From the NCBI GenBank assembly GCA_045046875.1, contig JASFYY010000120.1:1-38288 (forward strand): DNA of 38,288 bases. Reading direction: 5' to 3'. This document shows positions 8,414 to 38,288 of this stretch, piece after piece. How positions within the stretch are numbered: position 1 is the first letter of the stretch; every line of letters starts with the position of its first letter. The stretch comes from Verrucomicrobiota bacterium. GTDB lineage: Bacteria; Verrucomicrobiota; Verrucomicrobiia; Verrucomicrobiales; DEV007. The translations under genes and the position numbers were made by a program. The notes below the pieces were generated by a model. The model saw nothing but the letters and a program-made list of their open reading frames with translations. It was not told where the DNA came from and did not search any database.

Positions 8414-10846
8414 TCAAATCTGACGAGGAAACCAAACGATGCCCACCGATTTCGCCGAACAGTTTTTCTTCAACGGAGTGATGCGAACCTGCTCAAGCTT
8501 TTCATTCATCGGATCCAGCGATTCCTTCAAGTCAGCAATCTCCCTGCTCGCTTCAGCTTCCAGCTCTTTCAACTCCTCCTTCAGGCGATCGACCTTTTCT
8601 TCAGCACGCCCCACGTCCCCTGATTCTTTCCAAGCCCGCGAAGCACCACTCATAGCGGTGCGACCTTTGGTCATAGAGAATTTTTTACCAAACACAGCTC
8701 CCAGCAATGCACTGCCGATGCGGATGGCGCCGTCCAACTTGGCACTGGTTGCCTGCCCTTCTTGCTCAGCCAAGCGCTCCATAGCTCGCTGCACTCCGTC
8801 CTCCTGGCTTTGGATTTTCTTCTCAAAGCGCTTTTGCAAATCGGCCACTTTTTCATCACGCAGCTCACGGGCACTATGCATCAAGCGGGTTCGGAAATCA
8901 TTTTCACTCTCATCCATAGCAGAATACATGTCCGCCGCAGGACTGCGGAAAAGAGTCACCGAATCATTGGAATATAACCAATCGATCAATTCTTTTTTCA
9001 AGCTGGTGTATAGTTTGGATTGAATCAGATCCGTCGGCAAATCTGCAAATGAAGCACCGTAGAGAGCTTCGCGTGACAACTGGTTCGCTTGAATTTCATC
9101 GGGTAAATCAAGGCTCTTGTTCCAGTTGATACTCCCCCGCTCCGCATCGATTGCATTGATCATGGTAAGTTTACGCATCCCATTGACCGATTTTTTGCTA
9201 TCTGCGTAACGCACTTCCCCCAAGCGAATGAGCGCCGGAATGTAACGGATATTTGCTCCGTTGGCTCCGGGTTCAGCCGGCACAAAATATTCGTCAGCTC
9301 GTCTCGGCAAGCGCGGACGAACGGTGACTTTTTTTGCATCAGACTGCGGCGGCGTTGCTTCAACTGGCGCTGCCGCTTGCGCAGCCACACTGTTCTGCAA
9401 TCGCTGCGTCACTGCCTCGCGTTTGTCAGCCATCAACCGCTGGATTTGCTTTCTCGACATCGGCCCGCGCAGATAGCTCATCACCCAACGCACATGAAAA
9501 GTCTCAGGACCATCATCATGCACGTTGTTCATCAGAAAAACCCGCGCGCCCAGAGCCGATAGCCGATTTTCCATTGCCTTGCGGTCAAAGGCCTGGTTCT
9601 GGCTGGCCGAGGCACCGGAAATACCGTCGAGCACCCGCATTTTATCGCGCTCAGTTTGCAACCGCCCCAGAAACCAGGTGCCAATGTTAGAGAGCGCTTT
9701 GTAGTCGAGATCCACTGGGTTTTGCGTAGCAAACAAAAGCCCCACACCAAAAGCGCGGGCTTGTTTCAGCATCGTCATCATCGGCTTTTTCGAAGGAGGA
9801 TTGGCTGTTGGAGGCAAATAACCATAAATCTCGTCCATATATAACAAAGCGCGCAAACTGCTGGTGCCCGTCTGGGCACGCATCCAGCCCAACATCTGAT
9901 TCATCAGCAGCGAGACAAAAAACATGCGCTCACTGTCATTAAGATGGGCAATCGAGAAAATCGAAATGCGCGGCTTGCCTTCCGCAGTGTATAACATGCG
10001 CTGAATGTCGAGCGCCTCCCCGCTGAGCCAGGTAGAGAAACCGGGAGAAGCGAGCAGGTTGTTCATTTTCATCGCCAAACCCAGACGCTCTTTTTCCGGA
10101 CAAACCGTGTCCAAGCTCATCACTCCGATTTTATCAAAAGGCGGCGTTTGAATAAAACGAATCAGGGTTTCCAAAGTGATGCCGGTATCATCCTTCCAAC
10201 AATGACTAAAAATATTCGATAACAAAATGTGTTCCCAATCCTGAATCGGATCGGCATCCACCCCGATCAATGATAACAAGCTGGAAACCGTGCTTTCAAT
10301 GCGTTCCGAGAACAACTCATTGTCATCGAGAATCTGCTGAGTCGGCACTTCCAGTGAACTCAGAATCGAAACCGGCACTCCTGAATTGCTGCCTGGCGTG
10401 TAAACCGTCAGATCCACCTTGTCTCGAAAACTGCGAATACGATCCGCACTCTGCCCCCAATCCTCCAAACCCTTGCGCCAGGTTTCTGCCTGATCAGCAG
10501 CAAATTCATCCGGACTGATTCCCTTTTTACGCGCATCATCCTCATTGATCCATGGTCGAAAATCCTCTGCAGCCAAATCGGGGAAAGTCAGTAATAAGTT
10601 GGTAATATCACCTTTGGGGTCGATGACGATGGCCGGAATATTATCCATCGCCGCCTCTTCCAATAAAGCAAAACACAAGCCAGTCTTGCCCGAGCCCGTC
10701 ATGCCCAACACCACCCCGTGAGTCACTAAATCCTTTGAATCATAAAGCACCAGCTCCTCTTCGAGCTTCTTCTGCTCTAGGTCGTAATTGCGTCCCAGAT
10801 AAAATTTTCCCAGGCTTTCGTAATCTTCAGGTTGAATATTCATCAC
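8414..10846 (-). CDS. HerA/FtsK-superfamily ATPase (DUF853/DUF87-like) with C-terminal coiled coil
   Basis: Walker A GMTGSGKT, IDPKGD, Walker B LYMDE, KQARAFG, ATQNP. Confidence 0.85.
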   Translation of the reverse strand: MMNIQPEDYESLGKFYLGRNYDLEQKKLEEELVLYDSKDLVTHGVVLGMTGSGKTGLCFALLEEAAMDNIPAIVIDPKGDITNLLLTFPDLAAEDFRPWINEDDARKKGISPDEFAADQAETWRKGLEDWGQSADRIRSFRDKVDLTVYTPGSNSGVPVSILSSLEVPTQQILDDNELFSERIESTVSSLLSLIGVDADPIQDWEHILLSNIFSHCWKDDTGITLETLIRFIQTPPFDKIGVMSLDTVCPEKERLGLAMKMNNLLASPGFSTWLSGEALDIQRMLYTAEGKPRISIFSIAHLNDSERMFFVSLLMNQMLGWMRAQTGTSSLRALLYMDEIYGYLPPTANPPSKKPMMTMLKQARAFGVGLLFATQNPVDLDYKALSNIGTWFLGRLQTERDKMRVLDGISGASASQNQAFDRKAMENRLSALGARVFLMNNVHDDGPETFHVRWVMSYLRGPMSRKQIQRLMADKREAVTQRLQNSVAAQAAAPVEATPPQSDAKKVTVRPRLPRRADEYFVPAEPGANGANIRYIPALIRLGEVRYADSKKSVNGMRKLTMINAIDAERGSINWNKSLDLPDEIQANQLSREALYGASFADLPTDLIQSKLYTSLKKELIDWLYSNDSVTLFRSPAADMYSAMDESENDFRTRLMHSARELRDEKVADLQKRFEKKIQSQEDGVQRAMERLAEQEGQATSAKLDGAIRIGSALLGAVFGKKFSMTKGRTAMSGASRAWKESGDVGRAEEKVDRLKEELKELEAEASREIADLKESLDPMNEKLEQVRITPLKKNCSAKSVGIVWFPRQI

Positions 10847-14374: not shown

Positions 14375-15788
14375 TCAATCCACCGGTTCCGTTATAGGGC
14401 CAGGATTCACACCGTTGATCAAATCCTGCTTCATCAGGCGCCACGCCCTGGCGTTTGGATTCCGCCCCCCTCCACTCATCATATTCGGATCGGGATTGAC
14501 CGCAATGTTTCCAGTAAATTTCGCACCTATACTCGGATAGTCTCCGGCACCAGCCCCTTCATAATCAGGATCACCAGGGTTAACCCGATTGGTTGTCGTA
14601 AGTCTACCACTCGGGGTTGTTTTACCCAAATTGTGCTGACGCCACATCCAGTTGGCCAAAGCCTGCTGGCTTTCCGTTGTTCCGTCATCGCCCGGGTTGC
14701 CGCCGATATTTCTCATCCACAAAGGCACACGGCTGCTTTCCGGTGGATAGGACTCTCCCCAAGCAATATCAGGAATCCCATCTCTTGATCTTTCCACACG
14801 ACCGGTTTGATAAAGAATAGTCCCATCAGGATCTCTCGTGAAGGTTTCCGCTCCACCTGTGCCGTCGGGACTGAGAGAAGTGCGCGTTTCTCTCAAGGTG
14901 CCGTCGCTGTCCTTACTTCTCGTAACACGATCCGACCCTTGCTCATCTGTAGTTGTGCGAATCGTGGAAGAATTACCATCCCGTCTCCGGACCGAAGAGT
15001 AAACAGACTCCCAGTCGTTTCCGCTAGTTGACCAGGTTTTTGTCACGGTTCCATCAGGGGTAGTCGTACTCGTCGCAGTTTGTGGTAACGGAGCCCCCCC
15101 CACCACTGGCAATCCCACCCAAAAAGCCCCACCCGCTCGGCGGCGCATCTTCAGGCAAGCCATCCTTTCGCGAACTCCCATTGCCACCGAAACCTTCAAG
15201 ATCAGAAAAACCCCCACTGTCACTTTCTCCTCCCAAGCCAAAATCCAGTATTAACCCATCCGCATCGCCAATAAAATCAGCGAACCCAGCTGCACCCCCA
15301 ATTTGCTGAAGATCCCTGGCAGCCTGTCCAAAAGCAATGTCGTTAATCCGATCACCAATCTTATCTAGTGAAGTTTCCCCGACCGGTCTGAATGAGCCAC
15401 CAGCTCCATTCCCCTTGCGTTTCATCTGCGGTATTAATTTGAGCTTAGCGAGGCTTCTCATCTCTTTGGACGCATTACCCGGCCCCATGCGTTTCATGCC
15501 CGCTGGCAATTTCGGTTGCTCCACGCGTTTCTGAACCGGCGGAACCACCTGCTTCGCAACAGGCACCGCAGCGACTTTTACCTTCGTTTTTACCGCTTTA
15601 CGTGGAAGCACCTTTTTCACCACCGGCGCCGGCGGCGGATTTTGCTTGTTATTGTTATTTGGATTGTCGCTCACTACCGGAACAACCGCCAAACCCTTTT
15701 TCTGCGCATGCAGAGCTTGAGGACTAACAGCTAAAAAGCTGCCGATAATAACAGCGATACTCGCCAGCGAGATGGCCGGAGTTTTCAT
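14375..15788 (-). pseudogene. Exported protein, paralogue B of 15850-17232, frameshifted at a G8 tract (possibly phase-variable)
   Basis: ORF 15054-15806 matches the N-terminus and ORF 14375-15241 the C-terminus of paralogue A; removing one G at 15094-15101 gives one 470-aa frame. Confidence 0.85.
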
Positions 15789-15849
15789 ACTACTTTTTTG
15801 TTTCAATTTTGGTTTTCGGGTGAGTAAAAACCTACTGCTTGTGACCGCT

Positions 15850-17232
15850 CTAATCCCCCGGTTCCGTTATAGGACCAGGATTCACACCATTGATTAAATC
15901 CTGCTTCATCAACCGCCACGCCCTGGCACTTGGATTCCGACCACCTCCACTCATCAGATTCGGGTCGGGGTTGACCGCAATGTTTCCAGCAAATTTTGCA
16001 CCTATACTCGGATAAGCCCCCGCCTCAGCGCCCTCGTAATCCGGATCACCAGGGTTAACCTGATTCGGAGTTTTCATGCCGAGATCAGGACGGCGACCCG
16101 TTCCGTTGCTTGCCCACCAACGTGCCCATTTGCCATTGGGGTCGGCATTGTCAGGATCCGGATTTCCATCAGGATCACCTTCAGGAGGGCTTGTTGTTTG
16201 CGGTAATGTGACGCCCACCACCTGACCGTCTTTATCATAAGTTGTAGTTGTGGTGGATTCGCCACCCAGTAAAAAGGCGGTTAAATGCCGCCGCGTACTC
16301 TCCTCTGATCCTGCTGGATAAGAATCCACAACCATGTGAATATTCCCTCTGGAATCAAAAAATGTAGAAGTAACTTTAATCGACCCGTCTCCAGATCTCT
16401 GGGTATTTCTAACGAACATACTATTAGGAAGATCAGCCTCAGCCGAATAAAACGGCGGATGATCATAAGCCGCCCCCGCCAACGCATCCTCAGGATTTTC
16501 TGGCCTGAATGGCGCCCCTGAAGACCCTTTTGGCGTTTTGCCTCCGTTATTCTGCGGGGCTGTGGCATCTGGAAAAAACCCTAAGCCGCCAAAGCGATCA
16601 TCTTCCCCGGGTCCAAAAAACTTATTAAATTGATCTTGTCCCGCACCCTGACCTGAGCCCAAACCCAATTCAGGCTGCATCTCGTCTCCACTGCCTCCAA
16701 TCAAATCGGCAAACCCCGCAGCATCACCTATCTCCTTGAAATCATTTGCCGCCTGTCCAAATGCAATGTCATGGATACGATTCCCCAACCGGTCAAGCGA
16801 AGCCGCGCCAATCGACGGGAAGGAAGCATCCTTCACAACTACCGCCGCTTGTTTACGCTTCATCGGCGGCAACAGCTTAAGCTTGGCAAGATTCCTCACA
16901 TCGTTTGACGCTGCACCCGGCCCCATGCGCTTCATCCCCAATGGCAATTTCGGCTGCTCCACTCGTTTCTGAGCCGGTGGAATCAGCTGTTTTGAAATCG
17001 AAGGTGCCACTTGCACCTTGGTTTTCACCACTTTCCTCGGAAGCGCTTTTTTCACCACAGCTGCTGGTGGAGGCGGAGGGTTCTGGTTATTATTATTGTT
17101 GTTTGCATTGTCGCTTACTACCGGGACAATGGGCACCCCCTTTTTCTGCGCCTGCAGAGCTTGGGAACTGGCGGCATAAAGACCGCAGAGGACGAGCGCG
17201 ATACTCGTCAGGGAGATAGACGAAGTTTTCAT
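15850..17232 (-). CDS. Exported low-complexity protein, paralogue A (unknown function)
   Basis: Signal peptide (..QALQA|QKK), poly-Asn/Pro then Lys/Val/Pro-rich region, Gly-rich linker, Thr-rich middle, VNP-repeat tail. Confidence 0.85.
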   Translation of the reverse strand: MKTSSISLTSIALVLCGLYAASSQALQAQKKGVPIVPVVSDNANNNNNNQNPPPPPAAVVKKALPRKVVKTKVQVAPSISKQLIPPAQKRVEQPKLPLGMKRMGPGAASNDVRNLAKLKLLPPMKRKQAAVVVKDASFPSIGAASLDRLGNRIHDIAFGQAANDFKEIGDAAGFADLIGGSGDEMQPELGLGSGQGAGQDQFNKFFGPGEDDRFGGLGFFPDATAPQNNGGKTPKGSSGAPFRPENPEDALAGAAYDHPPFYSAEADLPNSMFVRNTQRSGDGSIKVTSTFFDSRGNIHMVVDSYPAGSEESTRRHLTAFLLGGESTTTTTYDKDGQVVGVTLPQTTSPPEGDPDGNPDPDNADPNGKWARWWASNGTGRRPDLGMKTPNQVNPGDPDYEGAEAGAYPSIGAKFAGNIAVNPDPNLMSGGGRNPSARAWRLMKQDLINGVNPGPITEPGD

Positions 17233-27113: not shown

Positions 27114-27120
27114 GTAGCCC

Positions 27121-27491
27121 AAAGGAGCGCGGACATTCCTGTCCGCTCTTCAAGGGTGTAAGACAAAATAGTTACGCTGCTGAGCGCTATGCGTTTCGCC
27201 CTTGCAGGACTGGAAGAGCTGGAAGAGCTGGATTTTTTACCCAGCGCTTCGCACTGGGCTATATCATTGAGCAGCGTTGTGCAAAAAAGGGATGAAAGCA
27301 AACTGTCCTGTAAGGACAAAATGTGATAGCCCGGTGCGAAGCGCTGGGGTTAAATCGGTTTTATTACCAGCCCTAAAAGGGCGAAATGATGTTGATGTGT
27401 GATAAGGTAGCTTTCAATTAGCAAAGGCTAACTTTTTTGTCCGGCACCCGCTGTTCAATACCTATTGCGACAGGAATGTCCGCACTCCTTT
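27121..27491. repeat. Nested REP/REPIN-like inverted-repeat structure
   Basis: Outer pair 27121-27146 / 27467-27491; middle pair 27194-27213 / 27367-27386 (17/20); inner pair 27240-27262 / 27326-27348 (22/23). Confidence 0.85.
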
Positions 27492-27540
27492 GATCTCCCT
27501 CCAAAATTGCAAACCCCCTCATTCCATGACAAAGTCCCTT

Positions 27541-31305: not shown

Positions 31306-31357
31306 TATTGGCAATACAAGAGGCCAAACAGCTATTAGGGTTGGTTTGCCTGCAGCC

Positions 31358-32359
31358 ATGCCTCTGATTCGCAACTCATCCTTCGCCCCTACGACCTTTT
31401 TCCGCCATGCCCACATGGACACGGTGCTGCCGTCAGCCTTGCGCAGGCTCAGTGCGCTGCCTGTGCAACGGATTCGCATTGACACCCCTGATCATGATTT
31501 CCTCGATCTCGATTATTACAACGATGGCCAATCCCACAAAGTCGCCATTCTTTCCCACGGGCTGGAAGGCAGCTCCAGCCAAGCCTACATTCTAGGCATG
31601 GCGAAAGCCCTCGCGGCCCAAGGCTGGGACAGCGTTGCGTGGAACTTCCGCGGCTGCAGTGGCGAGCCCAACCGCCTGCTGCGTTTTTATCACAGCGGTG
31701 CCACCGAAGATCTGCAAAGCATCGTCAACCACGTTTCAACAACACAACGTTATCAAAAAATAGCTCTCATCGGTTTCAGTCTTGGCGGCAATCTCACCCT
31801 GAAATACCTGGGAGATCTCGGTGACCAAATCAATCCCCGGATCTACAAAGCCGTCGCCTTTTCCGCCCCCTGCGACTTAAAATCCTGCGCCCATCTGCTG
31901 GCTCTTCCGGCCAACCGCTTTTACATGTGGCGTTTTATGCGCAGCCTGAAAACTAAAATGCGCGACAAAGCCAAGCGGTTCCCAGACAAACTCGATACCC
32001 ATGATCTGAATCAAATGCGCACCTTTGCAGAATTTGACGATCAATACACCGCTCCGCTTCATGGTTTCAATGGAGCTGTGGACTATTGGACGCGCTGCAG
32101 CAGCAAACCCGTGCTGAAGCATATCCACATCCCCACCCTACTGGTCAACGCCCGCAACGATCCTTTTCTTGCCTCCGAATGTTATCCGGAAAAAGAAGCC
32201 GCTGAACATCCCTATTTTCACTTTGAAGCACCTGATTATGGCGGCCACGTGGGATTCATGACTTCGCGCCCGAATGGAGAATACTGGTCAGAAACCCGAA
32301 CCCTCGAGTTTCTGAATAAAGCACAAACCCCCACTCCAAAAGAAAATGGAGCCAGCTAA
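31358..32359 (+). CDS. yheT: YheT-family alpha/beta hydrolase
   Basis: HGLEGSS, NFRGCSGEPN, GFSLGG nucleophile elbow, NARNDPF, GGHVGF. Confidence 0.88.
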   Translation: MPLIRNSSFAPTTFFRHAHMDTVLPSALRRLSALPVQRIRIDTPDHDFLDLDYYNDGQSHKVAILSHGLEGSSSQAYILGMAKALAAQGWDSVAWNFRGCSGEPNRLLRFYHSGATEDLQSIVNHVSTTQRYQKIALIGFSLGGNLTLKYLGDLGDQINPRIYKAVAFSAPCDLKSCAHLLALPANRFYMWRFMRSLKTKMRDKAKRFPDKLDTHDLNQMRTFAEFDDQYTAPLHGFNGAVDYWTRCSSKPVLKHIHIPTLLVNARNDPFLASECYPEKEAAEHPYFHFEAPDYGGHVGFMTSRPNGEYWSETRTLEFLNKAQTPTPKENGAS

Positions 32360-32391
32360 CGGGCTCGAACCGTTGACCTGCTGATTACAAA
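32343..32391 (-). repeat. Distal att site: displaced 3' part of tRNA-Thr
   Basis: 49-bp exact direct repeat of 38189-38237. Confidence 0.95.
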
Positions 32392-32534
32392 AAAGGAATT
32401 ATTGCCGCTGTGTGCAACTACCTGCATTCCCGTGCCAATCAAAATGCAAGGAACGGCACTGAGTTGCACCTGTGTGCAATTTTGGAGGCGGCAAAAGGCA
32501 CCGAGATGCATGGAGCAAGCTTTGACAAATAAGC

Positions 32535-34061
32535 TCAATCTGCAGAATTCACGACTTCTTTCGAAATATTATTCAAAATAGAAATTACTTCACTAGCACT
32601 CTTTTCGAACTCACTCTTTGCTCTCTTATCATCATCCCCAATCCAAGCCATTACCTTTTCTAGCAGTAGTTTCTTAGATTTTCGTTTTTTTTGCTTGTCT
32701 GATATCTCTAACACTTCGACCACTTCATTTTCGAAAGCGCTTGGGTAATACCTCTCAAAATCATGTTCTCCCAATTGGAGAAAGTTTTCTTCGCACCAAC
32801 TGCTGTTCTTGTAGGTTTCTTTTAGTCTCTCAATGACCTTTCCCTCATCATCTCCGCCATCAATCAATACCCATGCCTTATTGCGATAAGTAGGTTCCAG
32901 ATGAAGGAACACAAATAGGCTATTAAAACTATTAAACCGCTTCTCTACTTGGCTCAACCCGTCAGCGGAATAGGTTCTAATAAGTCCTGAAAGCTCTGGG
33001 CAAAACCAACGGAGCAGGTGATCTCGTATAATACGCTCTGCCGAAGATTCTTCTAAAAAAAGCCATGCTTTCCAGAGACCATAGTCTTCTACTGAATGCC
33101 CCAATCGCTCTAAGCAATCCTGTCTATCTTCAGGCGTTTGAAGCTTTATGACACTAGAAGTAGGAACACCCCGCTCGCTGTCTTTTATCTCATTGGAAAC
33201 TTCGTAAATCTCAGCTTTCTCAACTCCACCAAGCTTTTTCAGAACGATGTTAGAATGCGTGGTCAAGAAAAATTGATTATCAGCACTCTTCTCGATAATT
33301 AGATCAAGAAGCTTCTTTAACGCAGTAGGGTGCAAGTCATTTTCTATTTCCTCTATCACGAAAACTTTTTCTTTCGCAATACATAAATCTATCAAAAGCC
33401 CAATAATATGAGGTACTCCATCCCCCATTGAATCAATAGGAATTAAATTGGTTCCATCAATTCGATATGCAATCTGCTTGCCCTGCTTTCCAGGGATTCC
33501 TATTGTAGAGACCTTAAATCCTAGAATGTTTTTTACATGACCATTGAATTCTTCGAACCCATCGAACCCGCTATTCAAGAAGTCAAATTTACCAGGTAGA
33601 TTCTGGAAATTACCTGTAATTTTTATGTGAGAATCTCCGCCAGTCGTAGGCTCCATTTTCAAAATGTTCCTCCTCGAGAAAATGGGGAAAATTGCGTTTT
33701 CTGGATACTTCTGCCGATATGCAGAGGCATCTCTTCGATCTACACCAGAATCGCCAAAATTGAATATACTTCTTCCCCCTGCATCATAAATTTGTGAAAT
33801 ATAACTATAGTCGTCATCACTATTGGTAAAATCTGATCTTTTACTTTCGCTAATAAAATGATCTATAGTTATTTGCGCATTCCCGCTCCTTATATCGCGC
33901 TTATCTAAAACCTCAGGCATTTGGGGCGCATATATTGCCCTAATGATTGTAGATTTACCGCTGTTGTTATCACCAGTAAAAACGTTTATCGGTCCGAAAC
34001 CCTGAAGCTCTAAATTTTCATAGCACTTAAAACCTCTTATTCCTATACCTTCGATTTTCAT
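32535..34061 (-). CDS. OLD-like ABC ATPase fused to TOPRIM-like domain (putative anti-phage nuclease)
   Basis: Walker A GDNNSGKS, signature-like MGDG, Walker B/D-loop IEEIENDLHP, H-loop LTTHS; C-terminal LFLEESSAE, VLIDGGDD, DFERYY. Confidence 0.78.
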   Translation of the reverse strand: MKIEGIGIRGFKCYENLELQGFGPINVFTGDNNSGKSTIIRAIYAPQMPEVLDKRDIRSGNAQITIDHFISESKRSDFTNSDDDYSYISQIYDAGGRSIFNFGDSGVDRRDASAYRQKYPENAIFPIFSRRNILKMEPTTGGDSHIKITGNFQNLPGKFDFLNSGFDGFEEFNGHVKNILGFKVSTIGIPGKQGKQIAYRIDGTNLIPIDSMGDGVPHIIGLLIDLCIAKEKVFVIEEIENDLHPTALKKLLDLIIEKSADNQFFLTTHSNIVLKKLGGVEKAEIYEVSNEIKDSERGVPTSSVIKLQTPEDRQDCLERLGHSVEDYGLWKAWLFLEESSAERIIRDHLLRWFCPELSGLIRTYSADGLSQVEKRFNSFNSLFVFLHLEPTYRNKAWVLIDGGDDEGKVIERLKETYKNSSWCEENFLQLGEHDFERYYPSAFENEVVEVLEISDKQKKRKSKKLLLEKVMAWIGDDDKRAKSEFEKSASEVISILNNISKEVVNSAD

Positions 34062-34099
34062 GGAAAATGTTTACTAAGTGATAATTTTGAAGTCGATAA

Positions 34100-34192
34100 T
34101 CATACAACAATTCCTTCAATCTGTTTTTGAAGACGACTAATCGTTGCCGGATGAACATTGAACACCTTAGCCGCTTTTTTGCCGGCTTCTCC
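34100..34192 (-). pseudogene. 3' remnant (HTH end) of a second serine resolvase
   Basis: Translates GEAGKKAAKVFNVHPATISRLQKQIEGIVV*, collinear with GEVGSVVAKIFNVHPATICRLKRRIEGIAV* of the resolvase at 35528. Confidence 0.85.
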
Positions 34193-34193
34193 G

Positions 34194-34253
34194 AAAAAAG
34201 GTTTAGCTACCACTAAACGCGATTACTTGCATTCTAGGAGCAGTCAAAATGCA
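34194..34253. repeat. Internal diverged copy of the islet end
   Basis: Ungapped 40/60 match to 32389-32448, including TGCATTC-N9-TCAAAATGCA. Confidence 0.7.
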
Positions 34254-34371
34254 GTAACCTCCAAATTTGAAATTCTCATATTGACTGCGGAATTAGACAA
34301 TACTATCAACGGGAGTAAGTCTGCTTTCAACCCAAGGAGTCTCCCATGCGATCTAATGCTGCAAGCAATTT

Positions 34372-35505
34372 TCAACTATTTAAACGATCGAATAGGCGAC
34401 TTATAGGACTAGGATTAATCCGTCGGTGGGCCTCCGTTGCTACGCGAACAGCCAGAATAAACAGGTGAGAGTCCGCGAAATAGTTCGGATACGCCTCTCT
34501 TACACCTCCCATCGCATCAGTAGAAACCAGTGCCACAATAACGCCCTCAGAATTAACAGTCCTCAACTCTGCCTTCAAGTATTCTTCCTTAGCCTTGGAA
34601 AAGTCGCCAATCTCAAAGTACTTTTCTGCAACAGTTTTCTCATTTAGGTCTATTGTTAGAAGAACAAAACCTTCAATGTTCTGGTTTTCAATTCGATCTC
34701 CAGCAATACTTAACGAATTAGTGTAACCCTCAAATTTCACTACTACATCAAGCTTTTTGCTTAGCAAATACATCTCCCTGATCTTCTCCTTAAGCGCCTT
34801 TCCTTGACTTGAGGATTTCTTCACGATTCTATCAGTAAGACCAGAAACAATTCGACTCGAATTCGCACCAGAAAGCACTGCAATTTGTTCGATTTCCTCA
34901 AATATATCCCCTGCGACTTTGAAAAACTTTTTCCACTGTTCGTCGCCACGATCCATCTTAAGTGCTTCACTATTGAAGAGGTCGTAAATCTCAACAGCAG
35001 TAGCCCAAGAATGCTGTAGAGCTGTTCGCACCTGAAGCTCAATATCATACTGCCTATCTTCAATTCCCGAAAATTTGCCAATAAGATGCGTGCTTCTGTA
35101 GCCATCAAATTTAGCGGTATCCATGTAATCGTTTCTTATTCTAATGTCATCATGTCGAGTCAGGCCACGGATTAGCTTTCTCGCTCGTTTTTTACTGGAA
35201 AGAATGGCTCGGCACCCGCCAATGTCTTGCATTCGCTTCAACTGCATACCCTTCTCACGCTTCAACTTATCAATGATCGATGTTGCCCTCTTCAACCGCT
35301 TGGCACAGAATGCTTTTCTGTCATGGGTTGCGGCAATTTTAATCAAAAGACTATATGCTTTTTCCAAAGGCTCCTCATGACAACCTCTCCAATAGGAAAG
35401 TGCCTCCATTGATTTTTAATAGCCCGTTGGGTCGGTCTTAGCGATGTCCGGAAGGAGCAGCTTTTTGCCTGACCTCGTTACTTCTGCTTTTGAATACTCT
35501 GACAT
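34372..35505 (-). pseudogene. capRel: Fused CapRel-like RelA/SpoT small alarmone synthetase toxin-antitoxin with premature TAA at codon 30
   Basis: MSEYSKAEVTRSGKKL...GY*KSMEALSYWR in one frame; RLKR, MQDIGGCR, GYRSTH, ELQVRTALQHSWA; C-terminal AYPNYFAD. Confidence 0.78.
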
Positions 35506-35527
35506 CCTTCTTGTCGCAATATAGCGT

Positions 35528-36091
35528 CTATACAGCAATACCTTCAATCCGTCTTTTTAGTCTGCAAATGGTTGCAGGATGAACGTTGAATATTTTGGCA
35601 ACTACTGAACCTACTTCTCCAGCCTTGAGCATTTCCGAGGCTTTGTTCTTCTGGTCTTCGTTCATTTTACTCCTACGTCCCAACTGCACTCCATTGGCTT
35701 TAGCTCTTTTTATCCCTGCTTTGGTTCTGGATACAATCATTTTCCGCTCAAATTCAGCAAAAGCACCTACCATTTGCATCATCATTCTTCCTGCTGGGGT
35801 GGTTGTGTCGATTGATTCAGTAAGTGAAACGAATCCAACTCCGATATTGTCCAATCTTTCAATAATTGTGAGCAAGTCTCGAAAACTACGTGAAAGGCGG
35901 TCTAATTTCCATACGATCAATACATCTCCTTTCCTGAAGTGTTCCAGCATCTTTTGGAGTTCTGGTCAGTCGAACCTGCCCCCTGATGCTTTTTCTTCAT
36001 ATATTTCCTCAATTCCTGCTTTTTGAAGGGCTTCAATTTGCAAAGCAGAGTCTTGATCTTGAGTGCTGACTCTTGCGTATCCGATTTTCAT
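35528..36091 (-). pseudogene. Serine resolvase/invertase (Hin/Pin-like) with in-frame TGA
   Basis: MKIGYARVSTQDQ, EKASGGRFD*PEL (TGA 35966-35968 where Arg is expected), VWKLDRLSRS, FAEFER, C-terminal HTH. Confidence 0.9.
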
Positions 36092-36100
36092 GCCATCAAT

Positions 36101-36194
36101 ATTGCATACACCCATTGCAACTATATTACGCAATCGTAGGGATGCGAGTTGGAGAGGTTCCGAGGGGGATTGCAAAGCTTGAGGTTTTTGCAAT
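36101..36194. promoter_or_regulatory. Candidate res site / resolvase operator
   Basis: Inverted repeat ATTGCAAA-N10-TTTGCAAT (36169-36194) and TTGCA...TGCAA (36102-36120) directly upstream of the resolvase. Confidence 0.45.
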
Positions 36195-36244: not shown

Positions 36245-38116
36245 TCAAGGTTGCTCCTCTATAAACGGCACAGTGATATTCGCCTTACCTAATAGGTAGA
36301 GTGTCGTCTTTCGTATTTGGTCGCGAGGAGTGATAATCCCAACAGCAGGTATTCGTATAAGAGTAATTCCGTTCTCGATGCAACGCTTGCGCTTCAAACG
36401 GTCATTTATCAAAAGCCTTTGAAATGCTTTGCGGGATTTTTCCTCAGACATTCCTCCAAAACCAATTGGTTTATAGTGTTGCATCCCTTGATGCTCGAAA
36501 GCTAGACCCAGTTTTTCGCAAAATCCGTCGAGCTCCAACCTCGCGCCCTTGTCTGATACAATCCAATCAGGACGCACAGACGGAAACGGAAGCCCGAATA
36601 TGTCCTCTAAAATCATTCGACAAGCATTCTCGCTTATATTTCCCTTCCCGCACACAGGGCACCATTGTCCTCGCGACACTGTATCAGGGACAGCCTTCCA
36701 ACGGTGCCCCTCAGAGCATTCCCATTCTAATTTAGTGCGCGCATTAACATAAACGTCAGATAGGCATTTCCCTCCGACTTGTTCTGCAAGACTCTGCATA
36801 GTCTCAATGGACAATTTTAGGGAATTGTCCTTACAAATCTTACACCACTGCCCACTCTTAACACCTCCCGGTCGAGCTCTCCACCTGTGACCTTCAGCAC
36901 ACTCCCACTCCAGCTTTGCCTGCAAGTCAGCATACGTATCAGACAGACACTTCCCGCCTCTACTGATTGCGATCGACTGCATCTCCTCTATAGTCAATCT
37001 CCGGTCATCCCCTCGCCTTTTGGATGAGCATTGAGGGCACCAGCGACCGTATTTAATATTATGGTAAGTAGAATTCCATCTATGCCCTTTTTCACACTCC
37101 CACTTTATCAATTCTCGAGCATTGGAAATTTTCTGGGCCAGACACACTCCTCCTCTTTTAGCCGCCAAATCCCGTAGTTCCTCGATTTCGGTCACTTTCC
37201 TCGCGCACTTCGGACACCACGTCCCCCTCTTTACGTTTGATGGTGCAGCCTCCCACTCGTGTCCTATTGAGCATTTCCATTTTAATTTTACGTCAATACC
37301 AGCATATTCATCAGAGAGACACTTCCCGTTTCTTTCCTCCGCAATGGATCGTAGCTGAGTAATTGAAACCCTCGGCTTCCTTTGCCCTTTGTGACAAACT
37401 GGACACCAATTTTCCTTGTTACGCCTTACTGCCCTCAAACTGTCCTCCCACTGGTGCCCCTTTTTACATTCCCATTTCAGTTTCGAAGAACTTCCTGAGA
37501 AAACAGTTGATAGACACCTACCTCCCTTTCCCATCGCTAAGGCTTGCATTTCTTCTATTAAAATTCTTCTTTTACTCTTGCTACAAGAAGGACACCATGA
37601 ACCTCGACGTATAGAGTTAGGAGTTGCCTTCCATTTGTGTCCTTTGGCGCACTCCCACTCCAGCTTTGTGTGGGCACCCATGTATCTCCCTGATAGGCAT
37701 TTCCCTCCCTTCTTAGCCGCCAAAGATTTTACTTCATCGACCGTTTTCCTCTTAAGTCCTGAACATTCGGGGCACCAACTCCCTTGAGTAATAGAACTGG
37801 GGGACGCACACCATTTGTGCCCCTTCCTACACTCCCATTTCAGATTGGAGTTCGCCCCTCTATAGATTGTGGATATGCACCTGCCCCCACGGGTCTCAGC
37901 CATAGCCGAAACATCCTTTATAGTCTGCTTACGACGCTTTGCACACACAGGGCACCAACCGCTTTTCTTTACATTGCTTGGCATCGCTTTCCACCGATGC
38001 CCCTTGGCGCACTCCCATTCCAGATGAGTCGAAGCGTTGACGTAGACGGCCGACAAGCACTTGCCATTCCTCTCAGCGGCTATTTCGCGCATCTCCTCTA
38101 TGGTCAACTTTTTCAC
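36245..38116 (-). CDS. Eight tandem zinc-ribbon repeats fused to a Vsr/PD-(D/E)XK-like endonuclease domain
   Basis: 8 x ~60-aa units GxC(L/I)(S/A)...W.C..GH.W...WC..C; C-terminal SE...LELDGF...AFEHQGMQHY...DRLKRKRC..NGITLIRIP. Confidence 0.85.
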   Translation of the reverse strand: MKKLTIEEMREIAAERNGKCLSAVYVNASTHLEWECAKGHRWKAMPSNVKKSGWCPVCAKRRKQTIKDVSAMAETRGGRCISTIYRGANSNLKWECRKGHKWCASPSSITQGSWCPECSGLKRKTVDEVKSLAAKKGGKCLSGRYMGAHTKLEWECAKGHKWKATPNSIRRGSWCPSCSKSKRRILIEEMQALAMGKGGRCLSTVFSGSSSKLKWECKKGHQWEDSLRAVRRNKENWCPVCHKGQRKPRVSITQLRSIAEERNGKCLSDEYAGIDVKLKWKCSIGHEWEAAPSNVKRGTWCPKCARKVTEIEELRDLAAKRGGVCLAQKISNARELIKWECEKGHRWNSTYHNIKYGRWCPQCSSKRRGDDRRLTIEEMQSIAISRGGKCLSDTYADLQAKLEWECAEGHRWRARPGGVKSGQWCKICKDNSLKLSIETMQSLAEQVGGKCLSDVYVNARTKLEWECSEGHRWKAVPDTVSRGQWCPVCGKGNISENACRMILEDIFGLPFPSVRPDWIVSDKGARLELDGFCEKLGLAFEHQGMQHYKPIGFGGMSEEKSRKAFQRLLINDRLKRKRCIENGITLIRIPAVGIITPRDQIRKTTLYLLGKANITVPFIEEQP

Positions 38117-38192
38117 CTAATCTTTCGGGGTCAGTCAACAAATCTTGATTAATGCCTCCTCGAACCACGGGCATAACAGCTCCAAAATAAAA

Positions 38193-38268
38193 TGGAGCCA
38201 GCTAACGGGCTCGAACCGTTGACCTGCTGATTACAAATCAGCTGCTCTACCAACTGAGCTAAGCTGGC
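38193..38268 (-). tRNA. tRNA-Thr(TGT)
   Basis: 76-nt cloverleaf GCCAGCT...AGCTGGC-T-CCA; anticodon arm GCTGA-TTTGTAA-TCAGC; T-loop GGTTCGAGCC. Confidence 0.98.
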
Positions 38269-38288
38269 CGCTTGATCGATCCTCGATT

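What the first reader, a model, noticed from the sequence alone, without database searches (positions are those of the whole stretch)
32389..36194. Tandem 'resolvase - defence gene - element end' modules: a stacked defence-cassette system
Seen: capRel starts 22 bp after the resolvase stop, and the OLD-like gene starts 38 bp after the stop of an unannotated second resolvase 3' end (34100-34192). Each defence gene is followed by a related 60-bp end sequence (32389-32448 vs 34194-34253; 40/60 ungapped, AAAAAAGG-N26-TGCATT-N14-AATGCA). One copy abuts the att core and the other abuts the point where the second resolvase is cut. Inference: two related elements, each with a variable defence slot behind the resolvase, accreted in tandem at this tRNA, followed by recombination at the element end that removed most of the older unit. 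I know of no named system with this layout.
Basis: partly seen in the sequence, partly recalled or inferred. Interest (0 to 1): 0.82.

Follow-up and report, generated by a model that had tools for sequence, protein, structure and literature searches.

The report
Stacked resolvase-defence islands at tRNA-Thr
Two related small mobile DNA units, each a recombinase gene followed directly by a predicted anti-phage gene and a shared end sequence, sit one behind the other at a threonine tRNA gene; the older unit was likely cut short at its attachment site, and the gene layout is already published while the enzyme that inserted them remains untested.

Summary
A 5,846-bp island lies between 58-bp repeats at tRNA-Thr(TGT), and a 95%-identical relative has the empty site. 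It reads tRNA - zinc-ribbon gene - res site - resolvase - capRel - end B - resolvase tail - OLD-like gene - end A - tRNA fragment. The 40/60 end match is unique in the genome (next best 34). Both ends join at the anticodon loop, and end A extends into an 8-word TGCA array at 10-12-bp pitch. Best reading: two related tRNA islands stacked, then att-directed recombination removed most of the older one. No tyrosine integrase remains. Resolvase and capRel carry in-frame stops; only OLD is intact. The 'variable defence slot' rests on two genes here plus one metagenome contig whose cargo is unseen; none of 9 genes next to more distant Verrucomicrobial resolvases hit PADLOC. The resolvase-then-defence-gene layout is published (PMC13552941), as are tandem tRNA islands, so the layout is not new. 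Open question: is the small resolvase itself the integrase (about 30%)? Earlier scan notes describe similar stacked or resolvase-driven islands on other DNA.

The parts
38193..38268 (-). tRNA-Thr(TGT), the intact target gene; its 3' half is likely element-derived
   Evidence: ARAGORN
38180..38237 (-). att repeat, tRNA-side copy (anticodon loop to 13 bp past the 3' end)
   Evidence: 58-bp direct repeat, 1 mismatch
36245..38116 (-). 623-aa treble-clef zinc-finger repeat protein (DUF4379 x8) with a nuclease-like C-terminus; starts 63 bp from the att repeat; role unknown
   Evidence: Pfam; no PADLOC hit; relatives in plasmids and phages; gap; the C-terminal nuclease reading is my inference
36098..36194 (-). 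res-type site: 26-bp palindrome (36169-36194) plus accessory TTGCA half-sites before the resolvase start
   Evidence: similar palindrome upstream of 6 of 10 related resolvases by eye; a close relative's homology ends exactly at 36194 and it has 18 more bases at 36114
35528..36091 (-). small serine recombinase A (resolvase family, 187 codons), in-frame TGA at codon 42
34372..35505 (-). CapRel-like fused toxin-antitoxin gene (377 codons), in-frame TAA at codon 30; a 345-aa restart at 35409 is possible
   Evidence: 7ZTB E 5e-25 over residues 30-349; PADLOC PDC-S33 E 2e-84; 13 of 13 aligned homologues span the stop
34194..34253 (-). end B: TGCATT-N14-AATGCA palindrome plus CCTTT, joined through the first 3 bases of the anticodon-loop core to the resolvase tail
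34100..34192 (-). last 30 codons (helix-turn-helix) of a second resolvase B
32535..34061 (-). 508-aa stand-alone OLD-like ABC-ATPase/Toprim protein, intact
   Evidence: model pLDDT 92; top Foldseek hit 6P74, E 1.8e-16, TM 0.35; E337, E338, D401, E436 invariant in 118 sequences
32392..32478 (-). end A: same palindrome inside an array of 8 TGCA/TGCC/GGCA words at 10-12-bp pitch (32403-32478)
   Evidence: only chain longer than 4 in the genome; word set chosen after seeing it
32334..32391 (-). displaced tRNA 3' fragment (distal att repeat), likely host-derived
   Evidence: empty site in G005

Best explanation
This is a 5.8-kb island at tRNA-Thr made of two related resolvase-plus-defence-gene units in tandem, each likely inserted at the anticodon loop by a tyrosine integrase that is now lost, after which recombination between the middle attachment core and a look-alike site inside the older resolvase gene likely deleted most of the older unit. 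Shown: the repeats, the empty site, the gene order, the two related ends, the identical register of both junctions, and the two in-frame stops. Inferred steps: (1) unit 2 (...resolvase B - OLD - end A) integrated first; (2) unit 1 (zinc-ribbon - res - resolvase A - capRel - end B) integrated at the regenerated tRNA and pushed unit 2 outwards; (3) the core behind end B recombined with codon 157/158 of resolvase B, leaving end B fused to a 30-codon tail; (4) the integrase and tRNA-side arm of unit 1 were lost. The 60-bp ends would be the attP arms. The resolvase would act on its own res site (autoregulation, resolving multimers, swapping the left flank) and would supply the promoter read through into the defence gene. 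CapRel would pyrophosphorylate tRNA when triggered by a phage protein and OLD would cut DNA, both by family knowledge. Unit 1 is decaying; the OLD gene is what is likely still useful.
For: Repeats and empty site. In 5 of 5 distal tRNA-Thr fragments read in relatives, identity begins at or just before the anticodon loop as here. Three such loci have a tyrosine integrase beside a copy of the site (L070, L071: PF00589; L087: only sub-cut-off integrase domain hits). Islander counts 2083 of 3919 islands at this subsite and 125 tandems (PMC4383910, passages). Short phased arrays of similar words occur in the arm of the integrase island L071. Junction B keeps the first 3 core bases, and the tail matches the tRNA at 5 of 8 positions right of the loop; 20 of 556 positions of resolvase A do as well. 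Resolvase A is one coherent gene: its 5' part (118/157) and tail (25/30) are both closest to P0001. Two more distant resolvases lie 5-8 kb from tyrosine integrases (L082, L083).
Against: No tyrosine integrase or remnant is in the island (0 tblastn hits with 6 integrases at E 0.1), and there is no room for one. Which of the 8 PF00589 matches elsewhere in the genome, if any, uses this site is unknown. In L070 and L071 the integrase sits next to the distal fragment, where both units here have a defence gene. The ends share the TGCA word with the res site, and lack the near-core palindrome seen in 6 of 16 other island arms. The 5-of-8 match also holds at the same codons of resolvase A and may only reflect coding. 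No third copy of the end was found anywhere, so the ends cannot be tied to an enzyme by co-occurrence.
Confidence: 0.5

Rival explanations
1. The small resolvase is itself the integrase, as in phage phiRSM. The TGCA array is its one-sided accessory region in attP, crossover is at the TT of U33-U34, and the same enzyme later made the end B/tail deletion. The units would be complete 4-kb self-mobile defence islands.
For: Both units have the resolvase and neither has another recombinase. TGCA is the word of both the res site and the ends. Centred on U33-U34, the tRNA has 3 of 4 TGCA bases at both half-site positions of the 26-bp res palindrome; 2 of 40 distinct tRNA genes of this genome do. Junction B ends exactly after that TT. 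A resolvase-type tRNA integrase is known (PMC4471427, passages).
Against: The element-side half-sites do not match the res palindrome; the nearest word lies 6 bp further out. The end palindrome has 22-bp spacing and T-rich inner flanks, against 18 bp and A-rich in the res site. Three-part res sites normally restrict resolvases to excision (recalled). The register test is post hoc, about p 0.05. phiRSM uses a 13-bp core at a tRNA end, not the anticodon loop. Relatives use this site with tyrosine integrases.
Confidence: 0.3
2. Ordinary recombination or a random deletion stacked and trimmed the units; the junction position is coincidence.
For: Both stops and the shorter res site show decay. An earlier scan note reads gene-tail leftovers elsewhere this way (e1-1228462, unchecked).
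Against: The tails are only 71% identical, poor for homologous recombination. The deletion edge falls inside the 7-base core, in register with end A. There is no longer microhomology at the junction.
Confidence: 0.1
3. Integron-like cassettes of [resolvase tail - defence gene - end] insert into the resolvase gene at codon 157/158, each swapping the DNA-binding helix.
For: A 7-base stretch is identical at the start of both tails, and the 1428-bp tail-to-tail unit looks like a cassette.
Against: Resolvase A lacks the TTT found at both end junctions. Its tail and 5' part have the same nearest relative. A close relative runs unbroken through this codon. No other free tail was found in 133 family genomes. 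The last end joins the tRNA core, not a tail.
Confidence: 0.07

Closest known systems
Small-serine-recombinase-linked defence genes (RADS; Andersen et al. 2026, PMC13552941; read: abstract, introduction, first result sections, first part of discussion, term search)
   Same: Small serine recombinase with a same-strand defence gene starting within 100 bp; toxin-antitoxin cargo is the commonest; mobilisation by the recombinase is postulated there.
   Different: Term search of the main text found no att sites, repeats, tRNA targets, CapRel or Verrucomicrobia; supplements not opened. Here the units have mapped ends and a tRNA site.
tRNA-integrated islands and tandem arrays (Islander, PMC4383910, passages; tycheposons, bioRxiv 2020.12.28.424599, passages)
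   Same: Intact tRNA plus displaced 3' fragment, anticodon-loop site, later elements pushing earlier ones outward, decayed remnants; tycheposon figures label small serine recombinases as element genes.
   Different: No integrase on board, and no tRNA fragment between the two units (only 3 core bases), so Islander's filters would reject it.
phiRSM1/phiRSM3 resolvase-type integrase (review PMC4471427, passages; primary paper not read)
   Same: Small serine recombinase on an element inserted at a tRNA gene.
   Different: 13-bp core at a tRNA-Ser end, filamentous phage, activity shown; here a 58-bp repeat from the anticodon loop and no activity data.
CapRel SJ46 (PMC9712102, passages; PDB 7ZTB)
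   Same: Synthetase plus C-terminal sensor over 320 residues; R79, R116, Y155 and YXXY equivalents present (R70, R99, Y136, Y339/Y342).
   Different: Distant (E 5e-25); in-frame stop at codon 30; trigger unknown.
Class 1 OLD nuclease (T. scotoductus, PDB 6P74; review PMC10568477, passages)
   Same: Single gene, ABC ATPase plus Toprim-like domain with invariant acidic residues.
   Different: 15% identity, whole-chain TM 0.35; second aspartate of the DxD-like motif not invariant; the review notes that defence is established for few class 1 proteins.

Membership tests
tRNA-integrated island (Islander definition) | Intact tRNA and same-orientation displaced end fragment bound the element | tested here: met
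   empty site in G005
tRNA-integrated island (Islander definition) | Crossover at a known subsite (anticodon loop) | tested here: met
   identity starts at the loop
tRNA-integrated island (Islander definition) | Tyrosine integrase on board | tested here: not met
Tandem island array (Islander definition) | Each member has its own tRNA fragment and integrase | tested here: not met
   only 3 core bases at the middle junction; no integrases
SSR-linked defence locus (RADS) | Same-strand ORF within 100 bp after a small serine recombinase | tested here: met
   22 and 38 bp
SSR-linked defence locus (RADS) | Homology to the bait EF_B0058 | not tested
   bait not fetched; PF00239 and PF02796 match
SSR-linked defence locus (RADS) | Co-transcription | not testable with these tools
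   no RNA holder listed
Resolvase/invertase with res site | Catalytic N-terminal motif, HTH, upstream 26-bp palindrome with accessory sites | tested here: met
   the I-II-III naming is recalled
Resolvase/invertase with res site | Intact reading frame | tested here: not met
   TGA at codon 42; not checkable against source reads
phiRSM-type resolvase integrase | Short core at the tRNA end | tested here: not met
   58-bp repeat from the anticodon loop
phiRSM-type resolvase integrase | The small recombinase catalyses attP x attB | not testable with these tools
   sequence hints only
Fused CapRel | toxSYNTH plus pseudo-ZFD region with ATP arginines, G-loop tyrosine and YXXY | tested here: met
Fused CapRel | Intact full-length gene | tested here: not met
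   TAA at codon 30; 13 of 13 homologues span it
Fused CapRel | Phage-triggered tRNA pyrophosphorylation | not testable with these tools
   family knowledge only
Class 1 OLD nuclease | ABC ATPase fused to Toprim, single gene without UvrD or RT neighbour | tested here: met
   Pfam finds only the ATPase half
Class 1 OLD nuclease | Nuclease and anti-phage activity | not testable with these tools
   no assay

The most novel reading that the evidence does not exclude
A subfamily of small resolvases are their own integrases: they bind a helically phased TGCA array at the element end, cut the tRNA-Thr anticodon loop at U33-U34, carry one swappable defence gene in their operon, and stack and trim themselves at the tRNA. 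This would supply the missing mechanism for the published link between small serine recombinases and defence genes, with a defined enzyme, attP and attB to test.
Probability: 0.3. Interest if true: 0.72.

Novelty: new variant of a known kind. Interest (0 to 1): 0.43.

Why it matters
Small serine recombinases are now used as markers for defence genes, but the paper that showed this only postulates that they move them. This locus gives base-exact ends, a target and two natural junctions, so whether the resolvase or an outside tyrosine integrase does the moving can be tested directly. If the tyrosine reading holds, it is a tidy but ordinary decayed tandem island.

Tried and rejected
More members were sought and mostly not found. 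A resolvase-tail pattern gave 0 hits in viral contigs and 2 chance hits in JGI metagenomes. An N-terminal pattern gave 16 GTDB loci, none of this subfamily (best 38-52% identity, mostly Ktedonobacteria), and 0 viral. End motifs: 0 viral; 9 viral palindrome hits, none with a tRNA or resolvase in the locus; 7 three-mismatch hits in 133 family genomes against 2 in the control, not followed up; 6 hits in 340 order genomes, none a tRNA fragment. Resolvase searches: 15 of 400 order genomes and 2 of 400 phylum genomes had matches, none above 61% identity. The zinc-ribbon C-terminus and the OLD family were not found in 133 family genomes. CapRel relatives in 2 of 133 were not behind a resolvase. DNA context of the six closest resolvases P0001-P0006 could not be fetched. 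Downstream genes: 0 of 9 Verrucomicrobial and 3 of 23 viral co-oriented ORFs hit PADLOC. Of 80 viral loci, 8 had no downstream ORF, 48 were opposite-strand or over 300 bp away, and 1 duplicate was dropped; L085 and L086 were not sent; ORF calls were mechanical. No RNA holder was listed. Run X1 does not cover the two cargo genes, so the stops could not be checked as assembly errors. The promoter scan was at chance level. A single alternative genetic code was rejected because the two stops differ (TGA, TAA). Literature searches for this end or mechanism; none described it, but most subscription papers are not searched.
Full report
Setting. The window is contig C120 of a 5.6-Mb, 95%-complete genome; homologue names and earlier scan notes point to Verrucomicrobiales. 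A tRNA-Thr(TGT) lies at 38268-38193. Its 3' half plus 13 bases is repeated 5,846 bp away, at 32334-32391, with one mismatch. In G005, 95% identical over the left flank, the flank runs straight into the tRNA, so the whole stretch is one insertion site. GC is 39-48% in the island genes against 50% in the rest of the window.

Observation. The 40/60 match is the only one above 34 in the genome, and 0 of 2000 shuffles reached it; the bounds are post hoc. Three additions follow. First, both genes of the tRNA-near unit are broken: TGA at codon 42 of the resolvase and TAA at codon 30 of capRel; all 6 and all 13 aligned homologues span these places. I could not check the stops against source reads. Second, end A is longer than 60 bp: eight TGCA/TGCC/GGCA words lie at 10-12-bp pitch from 32403 to 32478, and no other chain in the genome exceeds four (word set chosen after seeing it). 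End B keeps 2 of the 8 exactly. Third, both ends run into six T's in the same register. The last three T's are the first three bases of the anticodon loop. End A continues as tRNA and end B continues as codon 158 of resolvase B.

Genes. The resolvase belongs to a small subfamily: six clusters at 67-77% identity, then a drop to 64% or less among 7,999 candidates scored. A 26-bp palindrome and further TTGCA half-sites precede it, like those before related resolvases. The capRel product matches CapRel SJ46 over residues 30-349 with the catalytic and autoinhibitory residues in place. A restart at 35409 would lack 32 N-terminal residues, so it may or may not work. The 508-aa protein folds with high confidence, its best solved match is the class 1 OLD nuclease 6P74, and it keeps invariant acidic residues; defence is inferred from the family only. 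The 623-aa zinc-finger repeat protein has no defence-library hit.

A third member. Run X1 holds an 1841-nt contig about 82-84% identical to the resolvase and res site. It has a sense codon at position 42. Its homology ends exactly at 36194, the outer edge of the palindrome, and at the resolvase stop. The 910 nt behind the stop do not lie on capRel or OLD at 80%. The 30 visible letters show a stop, then a purine-rich word and a GTG 20 nt on, which suggests another tightly coupled gene, but its identity is unseen. So res-resolvase moves as a block with changing flanks, and the slot has two defence genes and one unknown.

Is the slot general? Not among what I could reach. For more distant Verrucomicrobial resolvases (49-61%), the next ORF is mostly on the other strand (7 of 11 loci), and 0 of 9 tested hit PADLOC. 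Among viral relatives (41-55%), 3 of 23 co-oriented ORFs hit, one an ATPase-Toprim gene 24 bp after the stop (L134). These are other subfamilies, so this limits the claim without refuting it. The general association is published: RADS uses exactly this layout, same strand and within 100 bp, and postulates mobilisation without showing ends or a mechanism in the parts I read (PMC13552941).

Mechanism. Tandem accretion with an att-directed deletion explains every junction. I put about 0.8 on that outline and split it by enzyme. For a tyrosine integrase: the anticodon loop is the canonical site (PMC4383910); relatives' islands at this tRNA start at the same place, three with such an integrase beside the site; junction B keeps three core bases, as expected for a secondary site (recalled from lambda work). 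Against it: no integrase or remnant is present, and the ends lack a palindrome seen in 6 of 16 other arms. For the resolvase: it is the only recombinase in both units; TGCA is shared by res and ends; the tRNA fits the res palindrome's register around U33-U34, as 2 of 40 tRNAs do; phiRSM is a precedent (PMC4471427). An unchecked scan note (e1-4006826) reports a serine crossover at the same two bases elsewhere. Against it: the element-side half-site does not fit. The tail-swapping cassette idea is disfavoured, because resolvase A lacks the junction T's and its two parts share one nearest relative.

Novelty. Each layer is known: tRNA islands and tandems, resolvase-coupled defence genes, CapRel, class 1 OLD. 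I found no description of this end array or of an att-directed cut into a neighbouring resolvase in nine literature searches (supplements not opened, most subscription papers not covered). With one locus, two broken genes and no further copy of the end, this is a new variant of a known kind. Its value is as a base-exact test case for how small serine recombinases come to carry defence genes.

Noticed in passing
window 38190-38288 and G000:C13:38746-38844: Contigs C13 and C120 overlap by 99 identical bases covering the tRNA and break just after its 3' end, which suggests a second path (another allele or island) at this site in the sample.
   Followed up: partly
window 31346-32359: The alpha/beta hydrolase gene stops inside the antisense tRNA fragment; in the empty site it overlaps the tRNA 3' end, so integration leaves it intact.
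   Followed up: partly
L201 (G273:C420:1-3512): A 43%-identical intact CapRel sits behind an HTH_17 gene and a rolling-circle Rep gene, i.e. as cargo of a different small element.
   Followed up: partly
L085 (G187:C8, about 9450-10036): A more distant resolvase points at a displaced tRNA-Leu 3' fragment about 130 bp after its stop, with no cargo between.
   Followed up: no
L134:3117-5471: Viral contig with a resolvase followed 24 bp later by an AAA/Toprim-like gene (PADLOC AriAB E 5e-35), the same layout as unit 2 but no tRNA or end array in the locus.
   Followed up: partly
window 38124-38154: A 31-base non-coding stretch between the att repeat and the zinc-ribbon gene recurs with one mismatch in an unrelated X1 contig; possibly a small repeated element.
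   Followed up: no
G000:C54:67421-80788: A second tRNA island (tRNA-Ser) with a tyrosine integrase and a different, intact small serine recombinase.
   Followed up: partly
window 14375-17232: Two tandem paralogous reading-frame regions about 1.45 kb apart (71-88% identical blocks); the first is split into two ORFs.
   Followed up: no
window 27120-27492: Two nested inverted repeats (24 and 29 bp) in an intergenic region, REP-like.
   Followed up: no
L080 (G346:C56): A 61%-identical resolvase lies among helicase-, ATPase-, HNH- and restriction-like ORFs, apparently a defence island (by eye).
   Followed up: no
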